Shown here: in pieces, positions 7,137-44,724 of the stretch
Position numbering within the stretch: position 1 is the first letter of the stretch
Layout: the number at the start of each line of letters is the position of its first letter
From: Phyllobates terribilis
Lineage: Eukaryota
Assembly (NCBI RefSeq): GCF_046119375.1
Contig: NW_027362763.1
Span: 653,976,001 to 654,040,000 of the forward strand
DNA length: 64,000 nt
Direction of reading: 5' to 3'
The notes under the pieces: generated by a model
The model's input: the letters and a program-made list of their open reading frames with translations, nothing else
The model's database searches: none
Told to the model about the DNA's origin: nothing
Position numbers and translations under genes: made by a program

Positions 7137-8159
7137 ATGAGACGGATTCTACAACCCACAGAAGTTGCTCAGGTAGTGCTGCTCATCCAGGATGGCACAT
7201 CAATGTGAGCTGTGGCAAGAAGGTTTGCTGTGTCTGTCAGCGTAGTGTCCAGAGGCTGGAAGCGCTACCAGGAGACAGGCCAGTACACCAGGAGACGTGG
7301 AGGGGTCCGTAGGAGGGAAACAACCCAGCAACAGGACCGCTACCTCTGCCTTTGTGCAACGAGGAACAGGAGGAGCACTGCCAGAGCCCTGCAAAATGAC
7401 CTCCAGCAGGCCACAAATGTGCATGTGTCTGCACAAACGGTTAGAAACCGACTCCATGAGGATGGTATGAGGGTCCGACGTCCACAGATGGGGGTTGTGC
7501 TCACAGCCCAACATCATGCAGGAAGCTTGGCATTTGCCACAGAACACCAGGATTGGCAAAGTCGCCACTGGCGCCCTGTGCTCTTCACAGATGAAAGCAG
7601 GTTCACACTGAGCACATGTGACAGACGTGACAGAGTCTGGAGACGCCGTGGAGAGCGATCTGCTGCCTGCAACATCCTTCAGCATGACTGGTTTGGCAGT
7701 GGGTCAGTAATGGTGTGGGGTGGCATTTCTTTGGAGGTCCGCACAGCCCTCCATGTGCTCGCCAGAGGTAGCCTGACTGCCATTAGGTACCGAGGTGAGA
7801 TCCTCAGACCCCTTGTGAGACCATATGCTGGTGCGGTTGGCCCTGGGTTCCTCCTAATGCAGGACAATGCCAGACCTCATGTGGCTGGAGTGTGTCAGCA
7901 GTTCTTGCAAGATGAAGGCATTGAAGCTATGGACTGGCCCGCTCGTTCACCCGACCTGAATCCAATTGAGCACATCTGGGACATCATGTCTCGCTCCATC
8001 CACCAACGATGGAACTCCATTGCACCACAGGAGTTGGCGGATGCTTTAGTCCGGGTCTGGGAGGAGATCCCACAGGAGACCATCCGCAGCCTCATCAGGA
8101 GCATGCCAAGGCATTGTAGGGAAGTCATACAGGCACGTGGAGGCCACACACAATACTCA
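7137..8159 (+). pseudogene. Tc1 transposase, 340 codons, with one premature TGA (7206-7208) and the native stop changed TGA>TCA
   Basis: [14 protein letters not shown]...VLFTDESRF...LMQDNARPH-(34)-SPDLNPIE...RGGHTQY, in frame from the ATG at 7137. Confidence 0.9.
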
Positions 8160-10152
8160 GCCTCATCAGGAGCATGCCCAGGCGTTGTAGGGAAGTCATA
8201 CAGGCACGTGGAGGCCACACACAATACTGAGCCTCACCAGGAGCATGCCCAGGCATTGTAGGGAGGTCATACAGGCATGTGGAGCCACACACAATACTGA
8301 GCCTCATCAGGAGCATGCCCAGGCGTTGTAGGGAGGTCATACAGGCACGTGGAGGCCACACACAATACTCAGCATCATCAGGAGCATGCCCAGGCGTTGT
8401 AGGGAAGTCATACAGGCACGTGGAGGCCACACACAATACTGAGCCTCATCAGGAGCATGCCCAGGCGTTGTAGGGAGGTCATACAGGCACGTGGAGGCCA
8501 CACACAATACTCAGCCTCATCAGGAGCATGCCCAGGCGTTGTAGGGAGGTCATACAGGCACGTGGAGGCCACACACAATACTCAGCCTCATCAGGAGCAT
8601 GCCCAGGCGTTGTAGGGAGGTCATACAGGCACGTGGAGGCCACACACAATACTCAGCCTCATCAGGAGCATGCCCAGGCGTTGTAGGGAAGTCATACAGG
8701 CAGGTGGAGGCCACACACAATACTCAGCCTCATCAGGAGCATGCCCAGGCGTTGTAGGGAGGTCATACAGGCACGTGGAGGCCACACACAATACTCAGCC
8801 TCATCAGGAGCATGCCCAGGCATTGTAGGGAGGTCATACAGGCACGTGGAGGCCACACACAATACTCAACCTCATCAGGAGCATGCCCAGGCGTTGTAGG
8901 GAGGTCAAACAGGCACGTGTAGGCCACACACAATACTCAGCCTCATCAGGAGCATGCCCAGGTGTTGTAGGGAGGTCATACAGGCACGTGGAGGCCACAC
9001 ACAATACTGAGCCTCATCAGGAGCATGCCCAGGAGTTGTAGGGAGGTCATACAGGCACGTGGAGGCCACACACAATACTCAGCCTCATCAGGAGCATGCC
9101 CAGGCGTTGTAGGGAGGTCATACAGGCACGTGGAGGCCACACACAATACTCAGCCTCATCAGGAGCATGTCCAGGCGTTGTAGGGAGGTCATACAGGCAC
9201 GTGGAGGCCACACACAATACTGAGCCTCATCAGGAGCATGCCCAGGCGTTGTAGGGAGGTCATACAGGCACGTGGAGGCCACACACAATACTCAGCCTCA
9301 TCAGGAGCATGCCCAGGCGTTGTAGGGAGGTCATACAGGCACGTGGAGGCCACACACAATACTCAGCCTCATCAGGAGCATGCCCAGGCGTTGTAGGGAA
9401 GTCATACAGGCAGGTGGAGGCCACACACAATACTCAGCCTCATCAGGAGCATGCCCAGGCGTTGTAGGGAGGTCATACAGGCACGTGGAGGCCACACACA
9501 ATACTCAGCCTCATCAGGAGCATGCCCAGGCATTGTAGGGAGGTCATACAGGCACGTGGAGGCCACACACAATACTCAGCCTCATCAGGAGCATGCCCAG
9601 GCGTTGTAGGGAGGTCATACAGGCACGTGGAGGCCACACACAATACTCAGCCTCATCAGGAGCATGCCCAGGTGTTGTAGGGAGGTCATACAGGCACGTG
9701 GAGGCCACACACAATACTGAGCCTCATCAGGAGCATGCCCAGGAGTTGTAGGGAGGTCATACAGGCACGTGGAGGCCACACACAATACTCAGACTCATCA
9801 GGAGCATGCCCAGGCGTTGTAGGGAGGTCATACAGGCACGTGGAGGCCACACACAATACTCAGCCTCATCAGGAGCATGTCCAGGCGTTGTAGGGAGGTC
9901 ATACAGGCACGTGGAGGCCACACACAATACTGAGCCTCATCAGGAGCATGCCCAGGCGTTGTAGGGAGGTCATACAGGCACGTGGAGGCCACACACAATA
10001 CTCAGCCTCATCAGGAGCATGCCCAGGCGTTGTAGAGAGGTCATACAGGCACGTGGAGGCCACACACAATACTCAGCCTCATCAGGAGCATGCCCAGGCG
10101 TTGTAGGGAGGTCATACAGGCACGTGGAGGCCACACACAATACTCAGCCTCA
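8089..10152 (+). repeat. 71-bp tandem array (~29 copies) of the Tc1 transposase 3' end
   Basis: Unit agcctcatcaggagcatgcccaggcgttgtagggaggtcatacaggcacgtggaggccacacacaatact(c/g). Rare variants recur at a 710-bp spacing. Confidence 0.97.
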
Positions 10153-10570
10153 TTTTGACTTGTTTTAAGGACATTACATCAAAGTTGGATCAGCCTGTAG
10201 TGTGTTTTTCCACTTTAATTTTGGGGGTGACTCCAAATCCAGGCCTAAATTGGTTAATAAATGTGATTTCCATTGATGATTTTTGTGTGATTTTGTTGTC
10301 AGCACATTCAGCTTTCTACAGAACAAAGTATTCAATGAGAAGATTTCATTCATTCAGATCTAGGATGGGTTATTTGAGTGTTCCCTTTATTTTTTTGAGC
10401 AGTGCATTTGGTGCCATTGTCCTTAGACTGAATGACTTGGGTCACACGTTTGGGATCTCCTTCCACAAGCTTCTCACAATAGTTGGTCGGAATTTGGGCC
10501 GATTCTTCCTGACAAAACTGGTGGAACTGATCCAGGGTTGTAGGTCGCCTTGCTCGCACCGGCCTTTTCA

Positions 10571-10878: not shown

Positions 10879-11538
10879 TATATATGCACACACACAAACT
10901 ATATACTGTACTATAAATTGTACACTCCATACTCAATCCCACAATACCCAACCCGGCACTTATGTGAGAGCTGGTCCTGTCTCATGCCTCAGGCCAAGTT
11001 CAACGTCCATAGGCCAGTGCCAGTTTTTCACCCGAACTTCCTAGTGTCCCAAAGTCCCATGAGAAGAACCCAGCTCCCCCTTTCCAACCACCCAACCTAA
11101 CACCTACACCCATGTATATTATCCTTATATACAGTATATATACAACATAAATCAAAACAGTAACTATAAGCAATGACCACAACTAACAAAGCCCAAGTTT
11201 GGCATCTACTGCCCTACGATCACTGTATACTGACCAAAACAAAACAAAAATGTACAGTGTCAGCAGCAGCCCACCACCAGGAGAGGAGATGACCAGACTA
11301 GGGCACACTAAAAGAAAAGCCCCTCCAGAGAGCGGCCCTTACATAGTTTGAAAAGCCGAATAAAGACTTGCGTTCATCAAGTTCGACCTGTAAGTTCTGT
11401 AGTTGCTAAAGTTGATCCAGAGGAGGGCAAAAACCCCAAATGATTTAGCCAATCTTCACCTGAGGAAAAATTCCCTCCCGACTCTGAAACCAGCAGTCAG
11501 AATAAATCCCTGTATCAACCTACTATTTTATTCTATTT

Positions 11539-13095
11539 TTAAGTATATGCAGAAATCTGCCTGGTATCTAGAAAAGCATCCAGTCCCCGCTTGAACTGGT
11601 GTAGTGAATCCGACATTACCGTCTCCTCACTCAGTGAATTCCATATTCTCACTGCTCTTACCGTAAAGAACCCCTTCCTATGCTGGTGCTGAAACCTTTT
11701 CTCTTCCAGTCTTAGTGAGTGCCCTCTTGTTACCGTAATATCCCTCCTTTTGAACAAATCCCGGGCAAGGTCTCTATACTGTCCCCTAACATATTTGTAC
11801 ACATTTATTATGTCCCCCCTCAACCTTCTCTTTTCCAGGCTGAATAGTCCTAGTTTTGCCAACCTCTCTGGGTATTGCAGTCCCTCCATTCCCTTTATTA
11901 ATATTGTTGCCCTCCTTTGTACCTTTTCAAGCTCATTTATATCCTTTCTATATATTGGGGCCCATAACTGAGCACAGTATTCCAAGTGTGGTCTGACCAG
12001 TGCTTTGTACAGTGGAAGAACAATGTTCTCATCCTTTGCAGCTATACCTCTTCTGATACATCCCATTACCCTGTTTGCCCTTACAGCAGCGGCCTGACTT
12101 TGGGCACTCCAATTTAGTTTGCTATCAATCAAGATGCCCAAGTCCTTCTCCATCTCTGAATTCCCCAATGATTTCCCATTCAGTGAGTACTGGTGACTTC
12201 CATTTTTCCTTCCCATATGTATGACCTTACATTTCTCCTCGTTAAACCTCATTTGCCATTTAATGCTCCACCTACCCAGCTTATCCAAATCCCTCTGAAG
12301 GTCTTCACTATCCTCTTTTGTATTAATTGTTTTACATAACTTTGTGTCATCTGCAAATATTGATATTTTACTATTTATCCCGTTGACTATGTCGTTAATA
12401 AAGATATTAAATAACATTGGGCCTAGTACAGACCCCTGTGGTACCCCACTAGTGACGCTTACCCAATCTGAGTATATTCCATTTATAACCACCCTCTGCC
12501 TTCTATCCTTTAGCCAGTTAGCTACCCACTTGCAGACATTTTCCCCCAGCCCCATCATTCTCATTTTGTATACCAACCTATTATGTGGCACGCTATCGAA
12601 CGCTTTTGAGAAGTCGAGATACACGACATCCACTGGTTCCCCCTGATCTACTCGAGAGCTCACCTCCTCGTAGAAGTCAATCAGGTTTGTTTGGCAGGAG
12701 CGATTCCTCATGAATCCATGTTGGTTCGGGGTTAATAGATTATTAGCGTCAAGATGCTCCATGATTGCCTCATTAATAAAGCCTTCAAAAATTTTGCCCA
12801 CAACGGACGTCAGACTCACCGGCCGATAGTTTCCGGCGTCACTTTTTGCTCCCTTTTTGAATATTGGCACTACATTCGCCTGTCGCCAATCAAGTGGTAC
12901 AGACCCAGTCTCAACAGAGTCCTTAAATATAAGGTATAACGGTCTGTCTATCACATGACTTAGTTCCCTTAGTACCCGTGGGTGTATGCCATCAGGTCCT
13001 GGTGATTGGTTTATTTTAATGTTACTGAGGCGTTTCTGTACCCCAGCTTGGCTTAGATTTGTCATACTTAGTGGAGGATTAAGTTTGTCACTTAT
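11539..13095 (-). CDS. CR1 ORF2 C-terminal part (reverse transcriptase)
   Basis: [53 protein letters not shown]. Ten codons upstream of the 13065 ATG connect in frame to the N-terminal half once the L2 is removed. Confidence 0.95.
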   Translation of the reverse strand: MSDKLNPPLSMTNLSQAGVQKRLSNIKINQSPGPDGIHPRVLRELSHVIDRPLYLIFKDSVETGSVPLDWRQANVVPIFKKGAKSDAGNYRPVSLTSVVGKIFEGFINEAIMEHLDANNLLTPNQHGFMRNRSCQTNLIDFYEEVSSRVDQGEPVDVVYLDFSKAFDSVPHNRLVYKMRMMGLGENVCKWVANWLKDRRQRVVINGIYSDWVSVTSGVPQGSVLGPMLFNIFINDIVNGINSKISIFADDTKLCKTINTKEDSEDLQRDLDKLGRWSIKWQMRFNEEKCKVIHMGRKNGSHQYSLNGKSLGNSEMEKDLGILIDSKLNWSAQSQAAAVRANRVMGCIRRGIAAKDENIVLPLYKALVRPHLEYCAQLWAPIYRKDINELEKVQRRATILIKGMEGLQYPERLAKLGLFSLEKRRLRGDIINVYKYVRGQYRDLARDLFKRRDITVTRGHSLRLEEKRFQHQHRKGFFTVRAVRIWNSLSEETVMSDSLHQFKRGLDAFLDTRQISAYT

Positions 13096-16000
13096 AATAA
13101 TAATAATAATAATAGTTTATTTTTATAGCGCCAACATATTCCGCAGCACTTTACAAATTTTAGGGGGGACTTATACAGACAATACAGAATAAGCATATCT
13201 CATATTGAACGGAGTGAGGGCCCTGCTCGCGAGCTTACAGTCTATGAGGAAGTGGGGGAGACACAAAAGGTAAAAAGTACATATATTGTATAATGCAGCC
13301 TTGATATACTGAATAGGATAAATAATAATACATGGACTGGTCGTCAGCCAGTATGTGTGCAGTCCTGACAGAGGCTTTTATGTGCATGGTTGGTTTGAAC
13401 CCGAAGTTGAAGAAGATTTTAATATGGGGGAAAGCTGGGATGGACAGAGTGTGTTTAGGTGATACGCCAGTCTAAAGAAATGTGTTTTTAGGGTTCGCTT
13501 GAAACTGTGGGTATTGGGAATTAATCAAACTGTCCTGGGTAGGGCATTCCAGAGAATTGGCGCAGCACGCGAGAAATCTTGGAGACGGGAGTGGGAAGTT
13601 CGGATTATGGAGGATTTTAGTTTCAAGTCATTTGCAGAACGGAGGGCACGTGTAGGGTGGTAGACTGAGACAAGGGAGGAGATGTAGGGGGGTACTGAAT
13701 CATGGAGCGCTTTGTGGGTAAGCGTGATAAGTTTAAAACGAACTCTATATTGGATGGGCAACCAATGCAATGACTGGCACAGGGAAGAGGCATCTGAGTA
13801 GCGGTTGGCGAGGAATATGATCCTGGCTGCTGCGTTCAGGACGGATTGGAGAGGGGAGAGTTTAGTAAGAGGGAGACCGATTAGTAGAGCGTTGCAATAG
13901 TCAAGACGAGAATGAATAAGAGCGACAGTAAGAGTTTTTGCCGAGTCAAAGGTGAGAAAAGTCCTGATTCTTGAGATGTTTTTGAGGTGTAGATGACATG
14001 AACGAGCGAGTGATTTGATGTGAGGAGTGAAAGAAAGATCTGAATCAAAAATGACCCCAAGACAGCGGGCTTGTAGCTGGGGAGTAATGGTTGAGCCACA
14101 AACGGAGATGGCAATATCGGGCACAGGTAGATTAATGGAGGGAGGAAAGACGAGTAGTTCAGTTTTTGACAGATTCAGTTTTAGGTAGAGGGAGGACATA
14201 ATGTTAGACACAGCAGAAAGACAATCACTGGTCTTTTGTAGTAATGCAGGGGTGATGTCCGGAGCAGAGGTGTATAATTGGGTGTCATCAGCATAGAGAT
14301 GGTACTGAAAACCGAATCTACTGATTGTTTGTCCAATAGGAGCGGTGTATAAGGAGAAAAGAAGGGGGCCTAGGACTGATCCTTGAGGAACCCCGACAGT
14401 AAGAGGAAGTAGGGAGGAGGAGGAGCCGGCAAAAGACACAGAGAAGGAGCGGTCAGAGAGATAAGAGGAGAACCAGGAGAGAACCGTGTCCTTGAGGCCA
14501 ATAGTGCGGAGCATAGTGAGGAGGAGCTGGTGATCCACAGTGTCGAATGCTGCAGAGAGATCCAGGAGAATCAGCAGGGAGTAGTGACCATTAGATTTAG
14601 CTGTTAGTAGATCATTAGAGACTTTAGTGAGGGCAGTTTCAGTAGAATGTAAAGAGCGGAAACCAGATTGTAGAGGGTCAAGAAGAGAGTTGTCTGAGAG
14701 ATAGCGGATTAGACGGGAGTGGACCAGGCGTTCCAGGAGTTTAGAGATAAAGGGAAGATTGGAAACAGGTCTGTAGTTGGCCATGCAGTTCTGGTCGAGG
14801 GATGGTTTTTTAAGTAATGGTTGTATGCTGGCGTGTTTAAAAGAAGAGGGAAAGATACCAGATGAGAGGGAAAGGTTGAAAATTTTAGTTAGGTGAGAGG
14901 TGACAGCTGGAGCAAGGGACTGAAGGAGATGTGAGGGAATAGGGTCGCTGGTGCAGGTGGTAGGGCGAGAAGATGCAAGGAGCCTGATCACTTCATCTTC
15001 CGTGACTGGTTCGAAGTCAGAAAATGAGCAAGATACAATGTGGCGGGGGGGAGCATGCATAACATTTGGGGATTGGGAGAAAATTTCCTGTCGGATATGG
15101 TCAATTTTTTCTTTGAAATAGTTAGCCAGATCGTCAGCGCTGAGGTCGGTGGTCGGGGCCTGTGCTGTTTGATTGAGGAGAGAATGAAACGTGTCAAAGA
15201 GTCGTTTAGGATTATTGGAAAGTGAGATGATGAGGTTGTTAAAGTAGGTTTGTTTGGAGAGGTGAAGGGCAGAGTTATAGGTTTTCAGCATAAATTTATA
15301 GTGGAGGAAATCTTCGGGCAGATTTGATTTTCTCCACAGCCGTTCAGCGCACCTGGAGTACCTCTGGAGAAGACGTGTTTGAGGCGTGTGCCAGGGTTGT
15401 CGCCGTCTATGCCGAATTGTTCTTTGTGTAGGAGGTGCGGCTTCATCCAGGGCGCATAGCATTATTTTGTTATAATGCTTCAATGCAGATTCGGGACATG
15501 AGAGGGAGGAGATTGGGGCCAATGATGATTGCAACCTTTTTATAAATTTCTGGGTGTTAATGGCGCGTAAATTTCTATAAGTGTGGACGGTGGGAGTGTC
15601 TTGAGTAGAGTCACAGTTCTTGACAGAGAATGAAAGAAGATTATGGTCAGAGAGTGGAAGGGGAGAGTTAGTAAAGTCATGTACTGAGCAAAGCCGGGAG
15701 AAGATCAGGTCCAATGTGTTCCCGTCCTCATGTGTAGGAGAATTAGCAAGCTGTGAAAGGCCGAAGGAGGAGGTTAATGATAAAAGATGCGTGGCAGATG
15801 GGGAAAGAGGATCGCCAATTGGGATGTTAAAGTCTCCCATGATTATCGTGGGGATGTCGCAGGATAGAAAATTTGTAAGCCAGGCAGCAAAGTGATCCAG
15901 GAATTGACGGGGGGGACCTGGGGGGCGATAGACAACCGCCACTCGCAGGGAGAAGGGCCGGTAGAGTCTGACTGTGTGGGCCTCAAAGGACGGGAAGATA

Positions 16001-16909
16001 AGGGAGGGTACAGGGGGGATAACCTGAAAAGTACATTTTGTTGAAAGAAGCAGACCAACACCTCCACCTGATCTGTTGTCAGGTCGCGGGGTATGAGAGA
16101 AGTGTAGGCCACCATAGGAGAGAGCTGCAGCGGCGGTGGTGTCCGACTGCTGGATCCAGGTTTCAGTGAGAGCCAGAAGGTTGAGGGAATTAGAGAGGAA
16201 AAAGTCATGGATGTAAGAGAGTTTATTACAAGCTGAGCGTGCATTCCAAAGGGCACAGTTGAATGAGACAGAAGATATGCAGGGAATATTAATGAGATTA
16301 GCAGGGTTTCTGAATGTAACAGGGAAAGAGTTAGTGTTATTATTACTGGAGGGTCCTGGGTTGGGAGAAATATCACCTGCGACTAATAGAAGGAAGATAC
16401 AGAGAGTGAGCAGATGATTGAGTGATTTGTGAGAGCGTTTCCTGCGTTGTATGGTGGGAATGAATGGATCTGCGTGGTATAACATTGTGAAGAGAGCATG
16501 ACAACTGTACATAGGAGAAGAGAGGAGTGAGGGATTAATATGGATGAAGTGTGCCGCATTTGTGGGAGAACGGTGAATGTGGATGATTGTAGCAACCAGA
16601 GTATAAATGGCACAGATACAAATGGTGAATACTGTTTGCCAAAAAGATGACCTGGGAGCAAGTTTGTTTAATTGTCTTGCATGTCTTACCTGTCTCCTGC
16701 CCTGTCCAACTGCCATTTTCTAACTGCCAGGGCACTTTGCTAAATTATGGCACTTCGATAAAGTATGCATAAATGCTATATGCATAAATGCCCCCGCATA
16801 AATGCCTCCCCTTAACTAAGTCTCAATATATAGGGACGTATCTGCTTAGATCTGCACAGATTTAACTCATTAACAATCAATCACTAGCTTAAAAGACAAC
16901 AGGAGACCA
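13096..16909 (-). mobile_element. L2-clade LINE, near intact, inserted in CR1 ORF2
   Basis: APE-RT ORF, L2-type 3' tail (gtaaagtgctgcggaatatgttggcgctata) and an (ATT)n tail at 13096-13113. No TSD. Confidence 0.93.
13525..16716 (-). CDS. L2 ORF2: 2A-like N-terminus, APE endonuclease, reverse transcriptase
   Basis: [70 protein letters not shown]. The stop at NALPRTV* is premature, since the frame continues LIPNTHSFKRTLKTHFFRLAY. Confidence 0.95.
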
Positions 16910-18253
16910 TAAAGTGCCTGTTAGTTCTTTTTCCTTTGTGAAAGTTGACGAAAAAAATTTATTTAATAGATTAGCTTTATCCTCATCTTTCTCTATGATT
17001 TTGCCTTCATCACTTTTTATCGGTCCAATATTATTCGATTTAATCCTTTTACTATTTATATACGTAAAGAACAGTTTGGGATTTGATCTACTTTCCCTAG
17101 CAATACGTCTCTCTGTTTCCTCCTTTGCTATTTTTATTTGTTTTTTACAGGTTCTCGTTTTTTCCTTGTAACACATTAGTGCCTCCTTGCTGTTTTCCTG
17201 TTTTAATCTCTTGAATGCCTCTTTTTTGCTATTTAACGCCCCTTTTACGTTCTTATTCAACCATATTGGTTTCCTCTTATTTCTGGCCCTTTTATTCCCA
17301 TACGGTATATACCTCTCGCACTGAGTATTCAGAATTCTTTTGAAGGTTTCCCATTTACTATTCGTATTTCCTTGATTAAGAACTTTGTCCCAGTCTATAA
17401 GTTGAAGGTTTTCTTTCAGCTGATCAAACTTCGCCCTCCTAAAGTTTAATGTTTTAGTTGTTCCCTTATTGATAACCCTACTGAAGGGCATTTTGAAATT
17501 GATAATATTATGATCGCTATTACCTAGGTGCCCCCCTATCTGTACCTCAGTTATTCTATCAGGCCTATTAGTCAATATTAAGTCCAACACTGCCTTCCCT
17601 CTCGTTGGTTCCTGCACTAGTTGGGAGAGATAATTATCCTTGATATTTGTCAAGAACCTTTTTCCTTTCTGCGATCTACAGGTTTCTGTTTCCCAGTCAA
17701 TATCCGGGTAGTTGAAGTCCCCCATTACAATCACCTCATTATGTTTTGCTACTTTGTCTATTTGTCCTAATAGCAGTTTCTCATTCTCCTCTGTTATATT
17801 GGGTGGCTTATAGCAGACCCCCAGTAATATTTTATTATTATTTTTTGCCCCCTCTATCTCTACCCACATGGACTCGACCCCCTCTTCTCCCTCTCCTATA
17901 TCTTCCCTTAGTCTGGGCTTTAGACGTGACTTTACATATAAGCAGACTCCTCCGCCCTTCCCCTGTTTCCGGTCCCTTCTAAATAAACTATAATCTGTTA
18001 AATTTACCGCCCAGTCGTAGCTATCGTCTAGCCAAGTCTCTGTTATACCTACGATGTCATACCTCTCCTCCGATATAAGCGCCCGCAGCTCATCCGCCTT
18101 ATTGGTCAGGCTTCTTGCGTTGGTCAGCATGCAAGATAAAACTTTGGGGTTATTTAGCATCCTATTCTTCTCTAACGATCTAAATGTACTATCCCCACCC
18201 CCCTCTCCACCCTCATTATATTCACTTCTCCCCTTCCCCCTTGCTTGCCTCAC
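16910..18253 (-). CDS. CR1 ORF2 N-terminal part (APE endonuclease)
   Basis: TNARSL, VGITETW, GGGVCLY, MGDFNYP, LDLILTN, SDHNII. The first ATG is at 18160, and the track start at 18253 is GTG. Confidence 0.95.
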
Positions 18254-18288
18254 ATCCCACCTATTTCCTTGGTTTCCCCCCCCCGTCT

Positions 18289-19257
18289 CTAGTTTAAAAA
18301 CTCCTCCAACCTATTAGCCATCTTCTTCCCCAGCACCGCTGCACCCTCCCCATTGAGGTGCAGCCCGTCCCTACGGTAGAGCCTGTAGCCGACAGCGAAG
18401 TCGGCCCAGTTCTCCATGAACCCAAACCCTTCTGCCTTGCACCAACTCTTTAGCCACTTATTCACCTCCCTAACCTCCCGTTGGCGCTCCTGTGTGGCTC
18501 GCGGGATTGGTAGTATTTCTGAGAAAACTACCTTGGAGGTCCTTGCCCTAAGCTTCCTACCTAGATCCCTGAAATCATTTTTAAGGACCCTCCATCTACC
18601 ACTCACTTTGTCATTGGTGCCAATGTGGACCATGACCGCTGGGTCTTCGCCAGCCCCACCCAGTAACCTGTCAACCCGATCAGCGATGTGCCGGACTCGA
18701 GCGCCAGGGAGGCAGCACACCGTTCGGCGATCCCGGTCTTTGTGACAGATTGCCCTGTCTGTCCCCCTAATAATAGAGTCACCCACTACCAGGACCTGTC
18801 TAGCCTGCCCTACACTTCCCCCCTCCCCCTCATTACTGGAGCATACACTCCCCCGGCGGTCAGAGGATCTGTCGTGCTCCAATAATGCCGGTTCTGAACC
18901 AGCCTTCCTATACTTCTTCCCTCTATCCCTTCTAACCGTTACCCAGCTCCCTGCCTGTTCAGCCTGCACTTCCCCACTAAGCTCCACCCCCAGTGTTGAC
19001 CCATTGAGTGTCTGCTCGGTGAGCAGCAAACTCCGTTCCATGTTGTCGATGATCCTCAGTACCGCTATCTGAGCACTTAGATCCAGGATTTGGGCTTCCA
19101 AGTGCACGATATGCTCACATCTCTCGCAGCAGTATGGATCCCTGAGCGGTAGCTCAGGGAATGCATACATTGCGCAAGATGTACACTGCACGGCTCCGGC
19201 CAACATGGACGTCATTCTAAATATGGGGATACAGTCAGTATATATGTACAAGTACAA
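18289..19257 (-). CDS. CR1 ORF1: CxxC-CxxC zinc finger/leucine zipper plus SGNH/GDSL esterase domain
   Basis: CTSC...CERC, VVGDSIIRG, VHIGTND, DGLHLN. Likely start ATG at 19215 (MTSMLAG). Confidence 0.93.
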   Translation of the reverse strand: MYLYIYTDCIPIFRMTSMLAGAVQCTSCAMYAFPELPLRDPYCCERCEHIVHLEAQILDLSAQIAVLRIIDNMERSLLLTEQTLNGSTLGVELSGEVQAEQAGSWVTVRRDRGKKYRKAGSEPALLEHDRSSDRRGSVCSSNEGEGGSVGQARQVLVVGDSIIRGTDRAICHKDRDRRTVCCLPGARVRHIADRVDRLLGGAGEDPAVMVHIGTNDKVSGRWRVLKNDFRDLGRKLRARTSKVVFSEILPIPRATQERQREVREVNKWLKSWCKAEGFGFMENWADFAVGYRLYRRDGLHLNGEGAAVLGKKMANRLEEFLN

Positions 19258-19264
19258 AACACAA

Positions 19265-20000
19265 TTATTTATATATAGGTGTATGGACGGGGATCAATTA
19301 GGGATGTGCAAGTGTATCGATTAGATATCGGCGCGGGATCAGTTAAGTATGGACGGGGGATCAATTAAGTATCAATTAAGTATGGACGGGGGATCAGCTG
19401 AGTGGGTCAGGTGGATTAATTAAGTGTGGACGGTGTGTCAATTAACTATGGACTGGGATCAATAAGTATGGACTGGGGAAATAATTAATTGTGGACTAGG
19501 GATTCAATCAATTAATTATGGACAGGGGGTTTAATTAAATAGGATGGGGGGTAAAGCAAAAAAATAGGTATGGACGGTGGGTCAATTAACTAAGGACTGG
19601 GGATCAATAAGTATCAATAATATCAATAAATATGGACTGGGGAAATAATTAATTGTGGTCTGGGGAATCAATCAATTAATTATGGACAGGGGTTAATTAA
19701 ATATGGTGGGGGATAAGGCAAATAGATAGGGATTGGGGATGAGTAAAAGTGGACAAGGGGAATCTATTAAATAGGACAAGGGGGATCAATCAATTATGGG
19801 CTGGGGGGGTCAATCATTTAAATGTGGTCAGGGGGATCACTTTAATATGGACGGGGGGTGGTCGGGGATCAATTAAATGAGGACGGGGGGGTCAATATAA
19901 TGTGGTCAGAGGGATCAGTTAAATATGGACGGGGGTGTTCAGGGGAATCAATTTAAATATGGACGGGGGGGTAATCAATTAAATATGGACTAGGGAATAC
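19265..20000. repeat. Imperfect minisatellite in the CR1 5'UTR
   Basis: Recurring ~25-30-bp ggacgggg(g)atcaattaa(g/a)tat motif, plus a ~140-bp block duplication. Confidence 0.75.
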
Positions 20001-22199
20001 AATACAATTACAATACAGATACAAATACAATACAGTACAGTACACACTTGGGTTCAGTAGGGCCGCTTATCGCGGCCTCCTGCCCCTCACTCACCTCCTC
20101 TAGGGACGCTGCACGCTATCACAGCGCGCTTGTCCCTCCGGTCGCCTCTTACCGGTCCTCCTGATCACCTCCTGGTAACCACCACCTGGCACCCTCCGCT
20201 GGCCGGCACTGCACGCTGCCACAGCGCTCTCTTGCGCTCGTCCCTCCGGTCGCCTCCTACTGGTCCTCCCGGTCCGCTCGGTCACCTCCGCCTGGCTCTC
20301 CTCCCTTCCCAGGAGCTCTCTCCACACACAGCACAACTCTTGCAGCACACGGCAGGCTCCGCCTCCACCACTTCCTGTCAGGCCTTCATGTGCCCAGTCT
20401 CTCTTACTCCAGAGAACGCACCTTTACCAGGTACACCGCTGTGTTAAAGGGACAATGAAGAAGCAAGTGGTCCATGCTTTCCAGCATGGTACCACAATGA
20501 TCCTTGGGCAATCTCTGAACCAGGGTAGTGTACGCTGGAAGATGTCTATATGGTGTGTGAAGATCCTTCACTTGCCCACTTGTCTCCCATTCCTGGAAGG
20601 AGGGCTTAAAGAATCCCCTACAGGAAAATACCCAGGAGAATACCCACGGAGGAGCCCTCTCATTCCAGAGGTTTGCAATATTGATCTTAATGAAGGTATT
20701 CACAAGGAATACCACAAGGTTGACCATACCCAACCCTCCTAGTCTCCTCGGACAGTAAGTAACCGCTCTCTTGACCAGGTTCAGTCTATTCCCCCATTAC
20801 AGTTGGAAGAACAACCTGTAGACCCGAGTCCAGAGAGGCTCTGGCAAGATACACACACTGCCCAGATAGATCAGCAAAGGGAGCAGGTAAGTTTTGATCA
20901 GGTTTAACCTTTCCCTTAGGGTCAAAGACCAAACCTTCCATTAGTTCACATTCTGAGAGTCGATCTCTAGCCTGTTGTCCCAGTTTTGTTTGGGGTAATC
21001 CCCCTGGCCAAATTCAATGCCGAGGACTTTAACAGAGAGTTAGGGACCTGGAATGGTGTCAGGGAGATCAAAATCAGGATCTGCTCCTCCCAACTAGAGA
21101 CTCTCACACTTATCCTGGTTATTCTTGGACCCTGGTGCCTCGGAGTAGCGATTTACCTCTGACATCAGCCACTCTGCTTCGCAATCAGAGGACACAAACA
21201 CATTGACATCATCGGCATACTGCACTCTCGATAGAGTGGCTTCCGATGCCACCTAGTCCATCACGAAGTCACACTCCATCCTTCTAGGGAATGGGTCAAT
21301 TGCAAACAAGTAGAGCTGTGGGCTCAAGGTACAATCCTGGCGAACACCACACCCAACCCCAAAAGACTTTATAGAATGCAAGAGTTCAGCCATCTGGACC
21401 TGGTGATTTCTTTATGGCAAACCCTTCAATCAACAACTTCCTCTTCCCGAATTAAGTCTGTCAAAACAACAAAAGAGAGGTCTACCCCTGGTTCGGGGAC
21501 AGTTTCAGCCACAAAGCCAACATGTCATCCCAATCTAGATTTCGCTTACCAAAGAGGTGTGAGTAGAAGGATTTGACAACCTTTTCAGGGACTTCGTACT
21601 GTCAACCAGACCTGTGACAACTCTACTATTTTCTGACATTGTGCAGTTTCTGTAAGACTAGGGTGAGTAGTACTTACCGCAATCCCTTTCTAAATCAAAA
21701 GATGCGTGCCTATCATACTGATACCTCATAAGCAAAGATAAAATTCTGGAGATACTCTCACGGCTACCTCTAGTGGAGACAAGATGCTTGGGTTTCCCTT
21801 TGATGCCCTCATATAGGAGGTATCTGTCTAGATTTCTGAGGTTTGAAAGCAGAAGGAAGAATCTCGCCACCCTTTACTTGAACATTCTCCGACCACTATG
21901 ACTTACTACTAAAAAGATCCAACAATGGTACCTGGCTCTGAAGAAAATGCTCAAGGGGCTGGCTTATTTCTGCTTCTTCCAACAGACGAATTGAGCCTCT
22001 TCTCATCTCTGGGGTGGAAATCTCTGTAACATGCAAAGAAAACAAAATTAAACAGAACTCCAATTTAACAACAGACACGACTAAAAAGATGGTTTCCTCC
22101 TTTAAATAAAACCTACAATTACCTACATATGACCTATGTGGGCGTGGCTTGCTGTCGCGATGCGGTCCCTCTTCCCTCGGACGCACTCGGCGGCTCCGA

Positions 22200-23911: not shown

Positions 23912-26900
23912 CTAGATGGTGGCCCGATTCTAACGCATCGGGTATTCTAGAATAGGTATGCGGCCGACCGGGCGCAATCAGCAGAGCGGTATTTAAATTT
24001 GGCGCCAAAATCGCTGATTGGTCGAGGCCAGCAACCGCGACCAATTAGCAAAGCGGTGTTAAAATTTGGTGCCTATATCGCAGATTGGTCACGGCCGGCG
24101 GTCGCGACTAATCAGCAGAGCGGGGTTTAAATTTGGCGCCAATAATGCTGATTGGTCGCGGCCAGCGAACGTGACCAATCAGCAGAGCGGGGTTTAAATT
24201 TGGCGGCAATAATGCTGATTGGTTGCGGCCGGCGGTCGCGACCAATCAGCAGAGCGTTCTTTAAATTTGGCGCCAATAATGCTGATTATTTGTGACCGGT
24301 AACCGCAACCAATGAGCAGAGCAGTGTTTAAATATGGCGCCAATATCGCTGATTGGTCGTGGTGGCCGGCAGCGACCAATCAACGAAGCGGTGTTTAAAT
24401 TTGGCGCCAATATCGCTGATTGGTCGCGGCCGGTGGTTGCGACTAATCAGCAGAACGAGGTTTAAATTTGGAGCCAATACTGCTGATTGGTCGCGACCAG
24501 AGACCGCGACCAATCAGCAGAGCGGTGTTTAAATTTAGCACCAATATTGCTGATTGGTCGCGGCCGGAGACCGTGACTAATCAGCAGAGCGGTGTTTAAA
24601 TTTGGCGCCAATACTGCTGATTGGTCGCGGCCGGAGACCGCGAGCAATCAGCAGAGCGTTGTTTAAATTTGGCACCAAAATCGCTGATTGTACGCGGCTG
24701 GCAGTCGCGACCAATCAGCAGAGCGGGGTTTAAATTTGGCGCCAATACTGCTCATTGGTCGCGGCCGACGACCGCGACCAATCAGCAGAGCGGTGTTTCA
24801 AATTGGCACCAAAATCGCTGATTGGTCGCGGCCGTCCACCGCAACCAATCAGCAGAGCGTTGTTTAAATTTGGCTCCAATCTCACTGATTGGCTGCGGCT
24901 AGCAGCCGTGACCAATCAGCAGAGCGTTGTTTAAATTTGGCGCCAATCTCGCTGATTGGTCGCGTCTGCCGTCCGCGACCAATCAGCAGAGCGTTGTTTA
25001 AATTTGGCGCCAATCTCGCTGATTGGTCACGTCTGGCGTCCGCGACCAATCAGCAGAGCGTTGTTTAAATTTGGCGCCAATCTCGCTGATTGGTCGCGTC
25101 TGGCGTCCGCGACCAATCAGAAGAGAGTTGTTTAAATTTGGCGCCAATCTCGCTGATTGGTAGCGGTCGCCGGCGGCCGCGACCAATCAGCACAGCGGTG
25201 TTTAAAATTAGCGCCAATCTCGCTGATTGGTCGCGGCCGGCCACCGCGACCAATGAGCAGAGCGGCGTTTAAATTTGCCGCCCATGTCGCTGATTGGTCG
25301 CGGTCGGCCACCGCGACCAATGAGCAGAGAGGCGTTTAAATTTGCCACTGATATCGCTGATTGGTAGAGGTGGCCGGCCGCGACCAATCAGCAGAGCGGC
25401 GTTTAAATTTGCCGCCCATCTCGCTCATTGGTCGCGGCCGGCCACCGCGACCAATCAGCAGAGCGGCGTTTAAATTTGCCGCCCATCTCGCTCATTGGTC
25501 GCGGTCGGCCGGCCACCGCGACCAATCAGCAGAGTGGCGTTTAAATTTGCCGCCCATCTCGCTCATTGGTCGCGGTGGCCACCGCGATTAATCAGCAGAG
25601 TGGCGTTTAAATTTGGCACCAAAATCGCTGATTGTACGCGGCTGGCGGTCGCGACCAATCAGCAGAGCGGGGTTTAAATTTGGCGCCAATACTGCTCATT
25701 GGTCACGGCCGACGACCGCGACCAATCAGCAGAGCGGTGTTTCAAATTGGCACCAAAATCGCTGATTGGTCGCGGCCGGCCACCGCAACCAATCAGCAGA
25801 GCATTGTTTAAATTTGGCGCCAATCTCAGATTGGCCGCGGCTAGCAGCCGCGACCAATCAGCAGAGCGTTGTTTAAATTTGGCGCCAATCTCGCTGATTG
25901 GTCGCGGTGGCCGGCCGCGACCAATCAGCAGAGCGGCGTTTAAATTTGCCGCCCATCTCACTCATTGGTCGCGGCCGGCCACCGCGACCAATCAGCAGAG
26001 TGGCGTTTAAATTTGCCGCCCATCTCGCTCATTGGTCGCGGCCGGCCACCTCGACCAATCAGCAGAGCGTTGTTTAAATTTGGCGCCAATCTCGCTGAAT
26101 GGTCGCGTCTGGCGTCCGCGACCAATCAGCAGAGCGCTGTTTAAATTTGGCGCCAATCTCGCTGATTGGTCGCGGCCGGCCACCGTGAGAAATCTGCAGA
26201 GCGGCGTTTAGATTTGCTGCCCATCTCGCTGATTGGTCGCGGCCGGCCACCGCGACCAATCAGCAGAGCGGCGTTTAAATGTGCCGCCCATCTCGCTGAT
26301 TGGTCGCGGCCGGCCACCGCGACCAATCAGCAGAGCGGCGTTTAAATGTGCCGCCCATCTCGCTGATTGGTCGCGGCCGGCCACCGCGACCAATGAGCAG
26401 AGCGGCGTTTAAATTTGCCGGCCATCTCGCTGATTGGTCGCGGCCGGCCACCGCGACCAATGAGCAGAGCGGCGTTTAAATTTGCTGCTCATCTCTCTGA
26501 TTGGTCGCGGTCGGCCACCGCGACCAATCAGCTGAGCGGCGTCTAAATTTGCCGCCGATATCGCTGATTGGTCGCGGTGGCCGGCCGCGAACAATCAGCA
26601 GAGCGGCGTTTAAATTTGCCGGACATCTCGCTGATTGGTCGCGGTGGCCGGCCGCGACCAATCAGCACAGCGGTGTTTAAATTTAGCGCCAATCTCGCTG
26701 ATTGGTCGCGGCCGGCCACAGCGACCAATCAGCAGAGCGGCGTTTAAATGTGCCGCCCATCTCGCTGATTGGTCGCGGCCGGCCACCGCGACCAATGAGC
26801 AGAGCGGCGTTTAAATTTTCCGGCCATCTCGCTGATTGGTCGCGGCCGGCCACCGCGACCAATGAGCAGAGCGGCGTTTAAATTTGCCGCCGATATCGCT

Positions 26901-27788
26901 GATTGGTCGCGGTGGCCGGCCGCGACCAATCAGCAGAGCGGCGTTTAAATTTGCCGCCCATCTCGCTGATTGGTCGCGGTGGCCGGCCGCGATTAATCAG
27001 CAGAGCGGCGTTTAAATTTGCCGGACATCTCGCTGATTGGTCGCGGTGGCCGGCCGCGACCAATCAGCAGAGCGGCGATTAAATTTGCCGCCCATCTCAC
27101 TCATTGGTCGCGGCCGGCCACCGCGACCAATCAGCAGAGCGGCGTTTAAATTTGCCGCCCATCTCGCTCATTGGTCGCGGTGGCCGGCCGCGATTAATCA
27201 GCAGAGCGGCGTTTAAATTTCCCGGCCATCTCGCTGATTGGTCGCAGTGGCCACCGTGACCAATCAGCAGAGCGGCGTTAAAATTTGCCACCCATCTCGC
27301 TAATTGGTCGCGGCCGGCCACCGCGACCAATCAGCGTCGTATTAGTGTGGGCCCGGGAGCGGCGCTGCTTGTGCGGCTCCGTATTAGCGAGGATCGGGGA
27401 GCGGCGCTGCCTGTGCGGCTCCTTCTGCTGCGAGAAGCCAGGAGATGAGCGGCTGCTCGCAGCAGAAGCATCCCGACCGGCGGTGCCGCTCCTCGGTCCT
27501 CCGTTCACACTTGTTGTCGGGAGAACAGCAGGCCAAGACGCTGATCTTCCGACGTTAGCCGCATGGAGGTCAGCGGCGCCGTCGGGGTAGTTGTGCTGCT
27601 AGCGCCGCTCATCTCCCCGCTGCATTGCCACTGACCTCGGTCCGCCAGATGAGCCGCTAACGGCCGCCATCTTTTTTCAGAAATCAAGCGGCGCTGATTG
27701 GCCGCTGCCGGACCAATGAGTGACGCGGGATTTCCAGGACAGACAGACAGACAGACAAATAGACGGGATAAGACAATTATATAGTAGA
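23912..27788 (-). mobile_element. Non-autonomous Helitron
   Basis: The minus strand starts TCTACTATATAA followed by (TGTC)n. It ends with hairpin CCCGAT-gcgttaga-ATCGGG, then CCACCAT-CTAG. Inserted between A and T with no TSD. Confidence 0.9.
23950..27335. repeat. 67-bp hairpin-forming satellite (~50 copies) within the Helitron
   Basis: Unit cgcgaccaatcagc-agagcggcgtttaaatttgccgcccatctc-gctgattggtcgcg-gccggccac. The ORF track shows repeats at 67/134-bp offsets. Confidence 0.96.
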
Positions 27789-38800: not shown

Positions 38801-39177
38801 TCTTCAGAGTGTCCAAGTGTGGGATCACTTGTTGTCTGACGACACTCGGCATGGTGGGAGGAAGGAGCATCAGGGTGAGGAGTATGCGGTCGAGACTCAC
38901 GGCTACTAAGAGTTGACCGTGTGGAAGACAGACTGGAGGTGGTGGTGCCCAGGTAACTGGAAGTATTATCTGCTATCCAATTAATAACCTGTTCACACTG
39001 ATCAGTTCTCAATACTGGTGTTGTAGTGTGCTTCCCTAGTAATTCGGTCAAGAAGTGGGAGCGAGAAGATGTGGCTGTTAGTTGTGGCACATTTTCACCT
39101 TGGCCACGGCCCCGTCCTCTGCACGAACCATCACCAGAACGTCCACTTCCACGTCCCTTGCCATGCGCCTTGCCCAT
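35839..39177 (-). pseudogene. hAT transposase (BED zinc finger, RNase H-like core, hATC dimerisation domain), 1112 codons with a single premature TGA at 37684-37686
   Basis: VWNFF...CSTC...MIRHMAAKHP; LTTDTW; VCDNGRNL; CLAHVLNL; TRWNST; PAASVLSERVFS. ORFs 37684-39177 and 35839-37674 are in the same frame (H*VNIVEAG). Confidence 0.95.
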
Positions 39178-39245
39178 TGTAAATGAAGTAAAATAGCTTA
39201 CACTTGCACTATCAATGGAAAAAGGGTAATAAAGAGTAGATTAGA

Positions 39246-43201: not shown

Positions 43202-44724
43202 CAGTACAGACCAAAAGTTTGGACACACCTTCTCATTTAAAGATTTTTCTGTATTTTCATGACTATGAAAATTGTACATTCACACTGAAGGCATCAAAAC
43301 TATGAATTACCACATGTGGAATTATATACTTAACAAAAAAGTGTGAAACAACTGAAAATATGTCTTATATTCTAGGTTCTTCACAGTAGCCACCTTTTGC
43401 TTTGATGACTGCTTTGCACAATCATGGCATTCTCTTGATGAGCTTCAAGAGGTAGTCACCGGAAATGGTTTTCACTTCACAGGTGTGCCCTGTCAGGTTT
43501 AATAAGTGGGATTTCTTGCCTTATAAATGTGGTTGGGACCATCAGTTGTGTTGTGCAGAAGTCAGGTGGATACACAGCTGATAGTCCTACTGAATAGACT
43601 GTTAGAATTTGTATTATGGCAAGAAAAAAGCAGCTAAGTAAAGAAAAACGAGTGGCCATCATTACTTTAAGAAATGAAGGTCAGTCACTCTGAAAAATTG
43701 GGCAAACTTTGAAAGTGTCCCCAAGTGCAGTTGCAAAAACCATCAAGCGCTACAAAGAAACTGGCTCACATGAGGACCACCCCAGGAAAGGAAGACCAAG
43801 AGTCACCTCTGCTTCTGAGGATAAGTTTATCCGAGTCACCAGCCTCAGAAATCGCAGGTTAACAGAAGCTCAGATTAGAGACCAGGTCAATGCCACACAG
43901 AGTTCTAGCAGCAGACACATCTCTACAACAACTGTTAAGAGGAGACTTTGTGCAGCAGGCTTTCTTGGTAAAATAGCTGCTAGGAAACCACTGCTAAGGA
44001 CAGGCAACAAGCAGAAGAGACTTGTTTGGGCTAAAGAACACAAGGAATGGACATTAGACCAGTGGAAATCTGTGCTTTGGTCTGATAAGTCCAAATTTGA
44101 GATCTTTGGTTCCAACCACCGTGTCTTTGTGCGACGCAGAAAAGGTGAACGGATGGACTCTACATGCCTGGTTCCCACCGTAAAGCATGGAGGAGGAGGT
44201 GTGATGGTGTGGGGGTGCTTTGCTGGTGACACTGTTGGGGATTTATTCAAAATTGAAGGCATACTGTACCAGCATGGCTACCACAGCATCTTGCAGCGGC
44301 ATGCTATTCCATCCGGTTTGCGTTTAGTTGGACCATCATTTATTTTTCAACAGGACAATGACCCCAGATTCACCTCCAGGCTGTGTAAGGGCAGAGTGAA
44401 GGCAAAAGGGCCAACAAGTGCTAAGCATCTCTGGGAACTCCTTCAAGATTGTTGGAAGACCATTTCCGGTGACTACCTCTTGAAGCTCATCAAGAAAATG
44501 CCAAGAGTGTGTAAAGCAGTCATCAAAGCAAAAGGTGGCTAATTTGAAGAACCTAGAATATAAGACATATTTTCAGTTGTTTCACACTTTTTTGTTAAGC
44601 ATATAATTACACGTGTTAATTCATAGTTTTGATGCCTTCAGTGTGAATGTACAATTTTCATAGTCATGAAAATACAGAAAAGTCTTTAAATGAGAAGGTG
44701 TGTCCAAACTTTTGGGCTGTACTG
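43202..44724 (+). mobile_element. Tc1 transposon with long TIRs
   Basis: TA|CAGTACAGACCAAAAGTTTGGACACACCTTCTCATT ... AATGAGAAGGTGTGTCCAAACTTTTGGGCTGTACTG|TA, with ~200-bp inverted ends. Confidence 0.96.
43616..44542 (+). pseudogene. Tc1 transposase with a premature TGA (43691) and an in-frame deletion of the SPDLNPIE segment
   Basis: MARKKQLSKEKR...VLWSDKSKF...KHGGGGVMVWGCF...FQQDNDP...SRLCKG|RVKAKGPTS. The catalytic Glu region is absent. Confidence 0.92.

What the first reader, a model, noticed from the sequence alone, without database searches (positions are those of the whole stretch)
18254..18300. CR1 ORF1 ends in a correctly phased U_UUA_AAC slippery heptamer with ORF2 open in the -1 frame: candidate programmed frameshift in a LINE
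Seen: minus strand GAG UUU UUA AAC UAG. The heptamer U UUA AAC (18298-18292) is phased X_XXY_YYZ in ORF1, directly before the stop. I read the -1 frame codon by codon (F K L E T G G G N Q G N R W D V R Q...) and it is open into ORF2, whose first ATG lies ~130 nt downstream (18160). A G9 run starts 6 nt after the heptamer, followed by further G-rich sequence. Established: UUUAAAC is the coronavirus -1 PRF site, and LINE ORF2 is usually explained by re-initiation rather than frameshifting. Inference: this CR1 may make an ORF1(esterase)-ORF2 fusion by retrovirus-style -1 PRF, possibly stimulated by a G-quadruplex. I cannot say whether this has been reported.
Basis: partly seen in the sequence, partly recalled or inferred. 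Interest (0 to 1): 0.78.

Follow-up and report, generated by a model that had tools for sequence, protein, structure and literature searches.

The report
Conserved slippery frameshift site in CR1
This CR1 jumping gene and its distant relatives end their first gene in the same virus-style slippery sequence, followed at a fixed distance by a short run of G's, with the second gene open one base back and often lacking a start codon, so the copying enzyme is likely made when ribosomes slip back one base, a route my literature searches did not find described for this abundant family.

Summary
Confirmed and much wider than the window. U_UUA_AAC (18298-18292, minus strand) forms the last codons of a CR1 esterase ORF1, directly before UAG, and the -1 frame is open into the ORF2 endonuclease. 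Relatives found through esterase motifs, not through the heptamer, carry the same TTTAAAC-stop: 26 of 33 ends with a downstream endonuclease (window included), from loci most like duck and tubeworm proteins. ORF2 is open in the -1 frame in 19 of 30 junctions (decayed copies included), and 13 of those 19 have no in-frame ATG before the endonuclease's first motif. Of 218 homologous proteins, 130 end x-L-N; a crab-containing clade ends Q-G-N, which fits a switch to G_GGA_AAC (protein evidence only). The conserved downstream element is a single G5 exactly 10 nt after the heptamer (27 of 30), with no conserved fold or quadruplex. Best reading: programmed -1 frameshifting gives an ORF1-ORF2 fusion (0.85). 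It may be stimulated by a protein on the G-run, as at the arterivirus nsp2 site. No frameshift was measured. The window copy is dead (split by an L2).

The parts
19300..20050 (-). CR1 5' UTR region of degenerate 22-23-nt repeats rich in CCCCGTCC; 5' boundary of the element not fixed
18289..19215 (-). ORF1, 308 aa: CxxC...CxxC zinc-finger-like part, then SGNH esterase (GDS, GTND, DGLH), ending F-L-N-stop
   Evidence: (PF13472 E 3e-11)
18292..18298 (-). Slippery heptamer U_UUA_AAC, the last codons of ORF1
   Evidence: conserved in relatives
18289..18291 (-). ORF1 stop UAG directly after the heptamer (TAG in 13 of 14 representatives, TAA in 1; the pick pattern allowed only these two)
18282..18288 (-). 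7-nt variable spacer (fifth base G in 13 of 14 representatives)
18277..18281 (-). Conserved G5 at +11 to +15 after the heptamer, inside this copy's G9 run (18284-18276); candidate unstructured stimulator
   Evidence: 27 of 30 junctions; no local fold
16889..18298 (-). -1 frame: 59-codon linker, then APE endonuclease (first motif Asn at 18121; in-frame ATGs at 18160 and 18130); cut off by the L2 insertion
   Evidence: (PF03372 E 1.5e-16)
13093..16910 (-). Nested L2-like LINE (1064-aa EN+RT frame 16719-13525, (TTA)n tail) that interrupts CR1 ORF2; boundaries approximate
11539..13092 (-). Rest of CR1 ORF2 (reverse transcriptase), 54% identical to the intact ORF2 of L004
   Evidence: (PF00078 E 4e-36)
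11340..11538 (-). CR1 3' UTR; its end aligns with the 3' ends of L004 and L009

Best explanation
In esterase-type CR1 LINEs ORF1 ends in U_UUA_AAC plus a stop and ORF2 is open in the -1 frame from that site, so a minority of ribosomes likely slip back one base there and make an ORF1-ORF2 fusion (zinc finger, esterase, linker, endonuclease, reverse transcriptase), while most would stop and release ORF1p. Shown: heptamer, phase, stop, open -1 frame, frequent lack of an ORF2 ATG, a G5 fixed 10 nt downstream, no conserved fold. Inferred: the slip itself; the predicted junction ...L-N-L-E-T-G-G...; a high ORF1p to fusion ratio, as for Gag and Gag-Pol. Least certain (about 0.4 given frameshifting): the G5 acts as an unstructured stimulator bound by a G-run-binding protein at the mRNA entry channel, with the slow stop next to the slip site possibly adding a pause. 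The window copy cannot make a full fusion because an L2 splits its ORF2.
For: (1) Loci found by esterase motifs (patterns): 26 of 33 ends with a downstream endonuclease have exact TTTAAAC. (2) Synonymous positions are fixed: chance of T+TTA+AAC is 0.005-0.048 per element. (3) ORF2 frame: 20 of 30 junctions have the endonuclease in the -1 frame, 19 open; linker lengths of 105, 117, 132, 159, 177 and 270 nt are all multiples of three; the frame runs 953, 1006, 963 and 962 aa from the heptamer in L004, L009, L007 and L079. (4) No in-frame ATG before the endonuclease Asn in 13 of the 19 open junctions. (5) Proteins: 130 of 218 end x-L-N and in 129 of 130 x can be coded by a T-ending codon; 19 end G-N (17 Q-G-N) and 2 end S-K-N, which fit G_GGA_AAC and A_AAA_AAC; residues with only pyrimidine-ending versus only purine-ending codons at -3 are 67:1 before LN and 0:17 before GN, against 34:43 at -4. 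GN, KN and one LN ending share one clade, support 0.993. (6) G5 at +11 to +15 in 27 of 30; the PRRSV protein-stimulated site has a 10-nt wild-type spacer before an unstructured C-rich motif (PMC4937337, passages). (7) In four public runs no substitution at 3% or more was listed between 18185 and 18312 (one row not shown), and a frame-breaking tenth G stood at about 1% of depth in the two DNA runs.
Against: No frameshift product or rate was measured. No stem-loop or pseudoknot at the usual 5-9-nt spacing, although high-level frameshifting almost always needs a stimulator (PMC7618472). 11 of 30 junctions are broken (10 off-frame, 1 with a stop); the linker was broken in 9 of 28 copies against 5 of 28 flagged in the next 55 endonuclease codons. 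L083 has 900 open ORF2 codons yet a linker one base short. The window copy and five bird-like loci do have in-frame ATGs in the linker, in four of them 2 nt after the stop, so re-initiation is possible there. 58 of 218 proteins do not end in N, and a distant clade (L033, L049, L059, L060, L071) lacks the heptamer. The G_GGA_AAC reading rests on protein ends only. The samples are related, so counts are not independent events: about four deep lineages were seen as DNA.
Confidence: 0.85

Rival explanations
1. Termination and re-initiation, as described for L1 and SART1: ribosomes stop at UAG and restart on ORF2 at a nearby AUG or non-AUG codon; the conserved motif and G5 would serve as a re-initiation signal.
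For: It is the mechanism described for other LINEs, and L1 tolerates loss of its ORF2 AUG (PMC5972666, PMC1965478, passages). The stop position is conserved. In-frame ATGs exist in 6 of 19 open junctions, four of them 2 nt after the stop.
Against: No overlapping stop-start; the ATG after the stop is ACG, TCG, GTG, TGG or GGG in other families; 13 of 19 have no ATG before the endonuclease Asn. It does not explain the fixed T before TTA, the TTA and AAC codons, the switch to Q-G-N and S-K-N endings, or a frame that stays open right up to the heptamer.
Confidence: 0.08
2. Frameshifting is real but termination-coupled: the slip happens with UAG in the A site (P-site Asn tRNA moving from AAC to AAA), which puts the G5 7 nt from the A-site codon. 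The product is the same.
For: A stop follows the heptamer directly in 26 of the 28 exact-heptamer junctions printed, the two exceptions being off-phase copies (L031, L041); the spacing from the stop falls in the canonical 5-9-nt range.
Against: The full X_XXY_YYZ, including the first base, is conserved, as two-tRNA slippage predicts. In PRRSV the same 10-nt spacing works without a zero-frame stop.
Confidence: 0.25
3. Frameshifting is stimulated by an RNA G-quadruplex.
For: The window linker has seven GGG-runs in 130 nt; a quadruplex was predicted in 3 of 14 representatives.
Against: L006, L012 and L078 have one GGG-run in 130 nt; the window's predicted quadruplex is two-tier and about 85 nt away. 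An intermolecular quadruplex is not excluded.
Confidence: 0.1
4. The motif is kept for another reason (a 3' splice acceptor at ...TAG, an RNA packaging signal, or a needed L-N C-terminus), and ORF2 comes from a spliced or internally started message.
For: TAG ends the motif as in a YAG acceptor; the L-N ending is conserved at protein level.
Against: The sequence upstream is purine-rich with no pyrimidine tract; L040 has TAA; a protein constraint would not fix synonymous bases nor swap L for G or K in step with the preceding codon.
Confidence: 0.05

Closest known systems
Viral -1 programmed ribosomal frameshifting on X_XXY_YYZ heptamers (Hill and Brierley 2023, PMC7618472, passages read; U_UUA_AAC as the coronavirus site and Gag/Gag-Pol ratios are recalled knowledge)
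   Same: Canonical heptamer in the right phase at the end of a structural ORF, with the polymerase ORF overlapping in the -1 frame.
   Different: It sits in a non-LTR retrotransposon; there is no stem-loop or pseudoknot at 5-9 nt; a zero-frame stop follows at once.
Arterivirus (PRRSV) nsp2 -2/-1 frameshift stimulated by nsp1beta and PCBP (Napthine et al. 2016, PMC4937337, passages read)
   Same: No downstream structure; a short conserved homopolymer-rich motif after a 10-nt spacer.
   Different: G5 instead of CCCANCUCC; U_UUA_AAC instead of GG_GUU_UUU; no trans-acting protein identified here; the -1 frame is the long coding frame.
L1 and SART1 ORF2 translation by termination-reinitiation (PMC5972666, PMC3894237, PMC5009743, passages or sections read)
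   Same: Two-ORF LINE that needs much ORF1p and little ORF2p; ORF2 can lack dependence on an AUG.
   Different: Those make a separate ORF2p; here the frames overlap at a slippery heptamer, with no UAAUG overlap and no stop-closed spacer.
CR1 subgroup 7, type IVB ORF1 (zinc finger/leucine zipper plus esterase; Metcalfe and Casane 2014, PMC4120745; Schneider et al. 2013, PMC3905857; passages read)
   Same: Same ORF1 architecture and APE-RT ORF2.
   Different: The word 'frameshift' occurs 0 times in either main text. The first paper found this ORF1 type only in vertebrate subgroups; here relatives resemble tubeworm and crab proteins too.
Penelope-like elements with ORF1 separated by a frameshift and pseudoknot (Craig et al. 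2021, PMC8557442, figure legend read) and Drosophila HeT-A gag frameshift (PMC5009743)
   Same: Frameshifting invoked in retroelements without LTRs.
   Different: Different clades and domain layouts; HeT-A shifts inside gag and has no RT; a pseudoknot is drawn for the Penelope-like case.

Membership tests
CR1 LINE with esterase ORF1 (type IVB) | ORF1 with zinc-finger-like cysteines and an SGNH esterase | tested here: met
   PF13472 above cut-off; CxxC...CxxC, GDS, GTN and DGxH columns
CR1 LINE with esterase ORF1 (type IVB) | ORF2 with APE endonuclease and reverse transcriptase | tested here: met
   PF03372 and PF00078 in the two halves; RT half 54% identical to L004, against 25% for the nested L2
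CR1 LINE with esterase ORF1 (type IVB) | 3' UTR hairpin and octamer microsatellite (PMC4316615) | tested here: inconclusive
   The window end aligns with L004 and L009, which carry GATTCTAT repeats; the window has no clear octamer repeat
CR1 LINE with esterase ORF1 (type IVB) | RT phylogeny against Repbase clade references | not testable with these tools
   No Repbase library; only an esterase tree was built
Canonical -1 programmed ribosomal frameshift | X_XXY_YYZ heptamer in zero-frame phase | tested here: met
Canonical -1 programmed ribosomal frameshift | Downstream ORF open in the -1 frame from the slip site | tested here: met
   19 of 30 junctions; 953-1006 aa in four copies
Canonical -1 programmed ribosomal frameshift | Stimulatory stem-loop or pseudoknot 5-9 nt downstream | tested here: not met
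   Window MFE -2.6 kcal/mol, z +0.9; z -1.56 to +0.97 in 14 representatives; no consistent long-range partner in 11 elements. Pseudoknots were not folded explicitly.
Canonical -1 programmed ribosomal frameshift | Measured trans-frame product that depends on the slip site | not testable with these tools
   Needs a reporter assay, ribosome profiling or mass spectrometry
Protein-stimulated frameshift (arterivirus type) | Conserved unstructured motif about 10 nt after the heptamer | tested here: met
   G5 at +11 to +15 in 27 of 30; PRRSV spacer 10 nt
Protein-stimulated frameshift (arterivirus type) | A trans-acting protein that binds the motif and is needed for the shift | not testable with these tools
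   No binding data
Stop-start re-initiation (SART1 type) | Overlapping stop and start codons (UAAUG) | tested here: not met
   No overlap in 14 representatives; 13 of 19 open junctions lack an ATG before the endonuclease

The most novel reading that the evidence does not exclude
Esterase-type CR1 LINEs of vertebrates, worms and crabs have used retrovirus-style -1 frameshifting since early animal evolution to make an ORF1-ORF2 (Gag-Pol-like) fusion, and the shift is driven not by RNA structure but by a protein bound to a G5 element 10 nt past the slip site: a protein-stimulated frameshift encoded in animal genomes that would tie the reverse transcriptase covalently to the esterase-bearing ORF1 particle.
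Probability: 0.35. Interest if true: 0.93.

Novelty: new variant of a known kind. Interest (0 to 1): 0.8.

Why it matters
How LINEs translate ORF2 is called an open question in the review read here (PMC3894237), and the described cases are re-initiation, IRES-like entry or 2A skipping. CR1 is a major repeat (11.8% of the chicken genome per PMC11835228). If CR1 uses a -1 frameshift, its enzyme is an ORF1-ORF2 fusion: ORF2 annotations that start at an internal methionine are truncated, attempts to express or mobilise CR1 from a free ORF2 would be mis-designed, and the esterase would travel with the reverse transcriptase. The signal is about 25 nt and can be tested directly in a reporter. A structure-free G5 stimulator would also be a new type of frameshift element.

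Tried and rejected
No genome is held for the window, so its own copies could not be listed. Local hairpin or pseudoknot stem after the site: none; no Rfam match in 11000-21000. Long-range pairing of the G-box: the window's 5' UTR repeats (10 bp, -25 kcal/mol) and 3' UTR (-24 kcal/mol) can pair with it, but no common partner was found in ten other elements, so it was set aside. Natural in-frame ORF1-ORF2 fusions: the search of longer proteins gave 2 hits, neither such a fusion by its Pfam domains; this is weak evidence. DNA for the Q-G-N clade: none in viral contigs, plasmids or the three handle genomes, which returned the L-N families again. The five viral-contig loci had no esterase match to my profile and were dropped. 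26 of 66 esterase ends had neither an endonuclease nor the heptamer, 4 had the heptamer but no endonuclease hit, and 3 were too short; they were left out of the 33. The Fisher P value ignores relatedness and is not used. No RNA holder was listed; contigs cannot show splicing or expression. A precedent in Dictyostelium TRE5-A, named in an earlier scan note, was not found in the passages of two papers.

Full report
The observation. On the minus strand ORF1 (19215-18289, 308 aa) ends GAG TTT TTA AAC TAG. The heptamer T-TTA-AAC lies at 18298-18292 in X_XXY_YYZ phase, and the -1 frame is open from 18310 to 16889. The first in-frame ATG is at 18160. Seven bases, not six, separate the heptamer from the G9 run. 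ORF1 has an SGNH esterase; the -1 frame has an APE endonuclease; the reverse transcriptase follows at 13092-11539, after a nested L2-like element with its own 1064-aa frame. So this copy is dead. The closest named protein is from the frog Hyla sarda (72%), so the host is likely a frog. No genome is held for the window.

One heptamer proves little: XXXYYYZ strings occur 284 and 310 times on the two strands of the window. The test is conservation. I fetched 90 loci with patterns taken from internal esterase motifs and 45 more, largely the same places, from three handle genomes. Of 66 distinct esterase ends, 33 had an endonuclease hit within 900 nt, the window included; 26 of these 33 carry exact TTTAAAC. 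Of the other seven, L041 has it just outside the searched stretch, L018, L020 and L133 are one-base variants within a heptamer family, and L049, L059 and L113 belong to other clades. The heptamer-bearing loci fall into about four deep lineages: the window, L001, loci most like duck proteins (44-67%), and loci most like Lamellibrachia tubeworm proteins (44-61%). The latter lie in contigs filed under bacterial genomes and are best read as host DNA. From each element's own codon usage, the chance of T+TTA+AAC at that spot is 0.005-0.048 (12 elements). The constraint is therefore on the RNA, not only on the protein.

Frame and start codon. Among 30 distinct junctions picked by heptamer, stop-like triplet and the endonuclease's first motif, 20 have the endonuclease in the -1 frame and 19 are open; six different linker lengths (105, 117, 132, 159, 177, 270 nt) are all multiples of three. 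From the heptamer the frame runs 953, 1006, 963 and 962 codons in L004, L009, L007 and L079. Thirteen of the 19 open junctions have no in-frame ATG before the endonuclease Asn; their first methionine lies inside the domain. Against this: 11 of 30 are broken. In 28 copies with enough sequence the linker was broken in 9 and the next 55 endonuclease codons were flagged in 5, one of them only for a motif miss. L083 has 900 open ORF2 codons but a linker one base short. Six open junctions, the window among them, do have in-frame ATGs. In four public runs that hold the window's family, no substitution at 3% or more was listed between 18185 and 18312 (40 rows shown, 1 not), a tenth G stood at 899 of 73322 and 774 of 81312 depth in the two DNA runs and 5 of 70 in a run guessed to be RNA, and loose ends showed another subfamily with the same heptamer and stop.

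Protein ends widen the sample. Of 317 hits reach the last esterase motif; 160 end in Asn, 130 in x-L-N, including named proteins from frogs, coelacanth, sharks, a ray, ducks, a turtle and a monitor lizard. In 129 of 130 the residue before L-N can be coded by a T-ending codon. Nineteen end G-N (17 Q-G-N, one S-G-N, one R-G-N that looks like a decayed L-N copy) and two end S-K-N; these fit G_GGA_AAC and A_AAA_AAC. At the -3 position, residues with only pyrimidine-ending versus only purine-ending codons stand 67:1 before L-N and 0:17 before G-N, against 34:43 one position earlier. The G-N and K-N endings and one L-N ending sit in one clade (support 0.993), and two named snow-crab proteins end Q-G-N. 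A swap among three legal heptamers is what a slip site predicts and a protein or splice motif does not. It rests on proteins alone: I found no DNA for this clade. Related sequences inflate all these counts. Fifty-eight of the 218 end otherwise; I did not check each one.

The downstream element. Aligned without gaps, 14 chosen representatives read heptamer, stop, seven variable bases, then G5. The first G was part of my pick pattern; the next four were not, and all 14 have them. In the 30-junction set, where no G was required, 27 have G5 at +11 to +15. Two of these Gs are third positions of the -1 frame, so the signal is at RNA level. No local structure is conserved (z -1.56 to +0.97), a quadruplex is predicted in 3 of 14, and three families have a single GGG-run in 130 nt. 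No common long-range partner was found. The layout matches the PRRSV nsp2 site, where an unstructured C-rich motif after a 10-nt spacer binds PCBP and nsp1beta and works only at 9-11 nt (PMC4937337). That a G-binding protein plays this part here is inference.

Mechanism. Most ribosomes would stop at UAG and give ORF1p; a minority likely slip back one base and give a fusion of zinc finger, esterase, linker, endonuclease and reverse transcriptase. I put this at 0.85. Re-initiation (0.08) cannot explain the fixed slippery bases, their swaps, or the lack of ATGs, though L1 shows that an AUG is not always needed. Slippage with the stop in the A site is a variant with the same product. A distant esterase clade (L033, L049, L059, L060, L071) ends TGA-CCA or TGA-CAA; in the three with endonuclease sequence it lies in the same frame as ORF1, so the frameshift is not universal among esterase elements.

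What is in print. Ten full-text searches showed no paper on a CR1 frameshift; 'CR1 + slippery + retrotransposon' gave 0 papers. For most hits I saw only the listing and the start of the abstract, and searches listed 25 of 66 and 30 of 83. Passages were read in PMC5009743 (first 300,000 characters; 'CR1' 0 times), PMC3708506, PMC1965478, PMC5972666, PMC4937337, PMC7618472, PMC3905857, PMC8557442, PMC11835228, PMC5006619, PMC3159450, PMC8665684, PMC4120745 and PMC4316615, and two of three parts of PMC3894237. 'Frameshift' occurs 0 times in the CR1-centred papers. No supplements were read. The original CR1 papers (Haas, Kajikawa; not looked up), Kapitonov and Jurka 2003 (not held) and Repbase notes were not seen, so an earlier remark there is possible. 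Two earlier notes of this scan reached the same idea for shark CR1 and a Penelope-like element; they are unchecked AI notes and not counted as support.

Verdict. The feature is real, conserved at nucleotide level across distant animal lineages, and best explained as a programmed -1 frameshift in a LINE, with an unusual structure-free G5 element. It is a new variant of a known kind; interest 0.8.

Noticed in passing
window 16719-13525 (-): The nested L2-like ORF carries a 2A-like motif ([14 protein letters not shown]) ahead of its endonuclease, the kind described for L2 and CR1 elements in PMC3708506; so two different recoding signals sit in one nested pair.
   Followed up: no
window 20050-19300 (-): The CR1 5' UTR is made of 22-23-nt repeats with CCCCGTCC, which can pair over 10 bases with GACGGGGGGG just after the ORF1 stop. 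Not seen as a shared feature in other families.
   Followed up: partly
window about 21300-20404 (-): A decayed reverse-transcriptase fragment (YADD motif, C-terminal HLLLHC) ends a few hundred bases upstream of the CR1 leader; an earlier scan note (e1-8039930) describes Tx1-type elements landing in front of CR1 promoters. Its clade was not tested.
   Followed up: no
L033, L049, L059, L060, L071 (ORF1 end): A distant esterase clade ends ORF1 with TGA-CCA or TGA-CAA then TGC; where the endonuclease is present it is in the same frame, with an ATG three codons after the stop in four of five: stop read-through or re-initiation instead of a frameshift.
   Followed up: partly
proteins P0178, P0201, P0240, P0150, P0195: Several invertebrate-like ORF1 proteins end F-F-R, F-F-H or F-F-R-G, which could hide a U_UUU_UUY slip site one or two codons before the stop; two others end S-N, which fits no canonical heptamer.
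   Followed up: no
L078-L090 (genome contigs): Many CR1 copies lie in contigs filed under bacterial genome records (28 matches in G001), which points to animal host DNA in those assemblies.
   Followed up: no
window 35839-39240 (-): Two long frames (518 and 614 aa) separated by a single stop look like one hAT-type transposase (label from recall, not scanned).
   Followed up: no
window 7209-8261 (+), 43694-44542 (+), 46889-47692 (-): Two Tc1-like transposase frames and a gag/protease-like frame (labels from recall, not scanned).
   Followed up: no
window 8087-10153, 23975-27335, 50258-64000: Large tandem arrays: 71 bp x 29, a 67-bp partly palindromic unit x 50, and a different 71 bp x 194 running off the window.
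   Followed up: no
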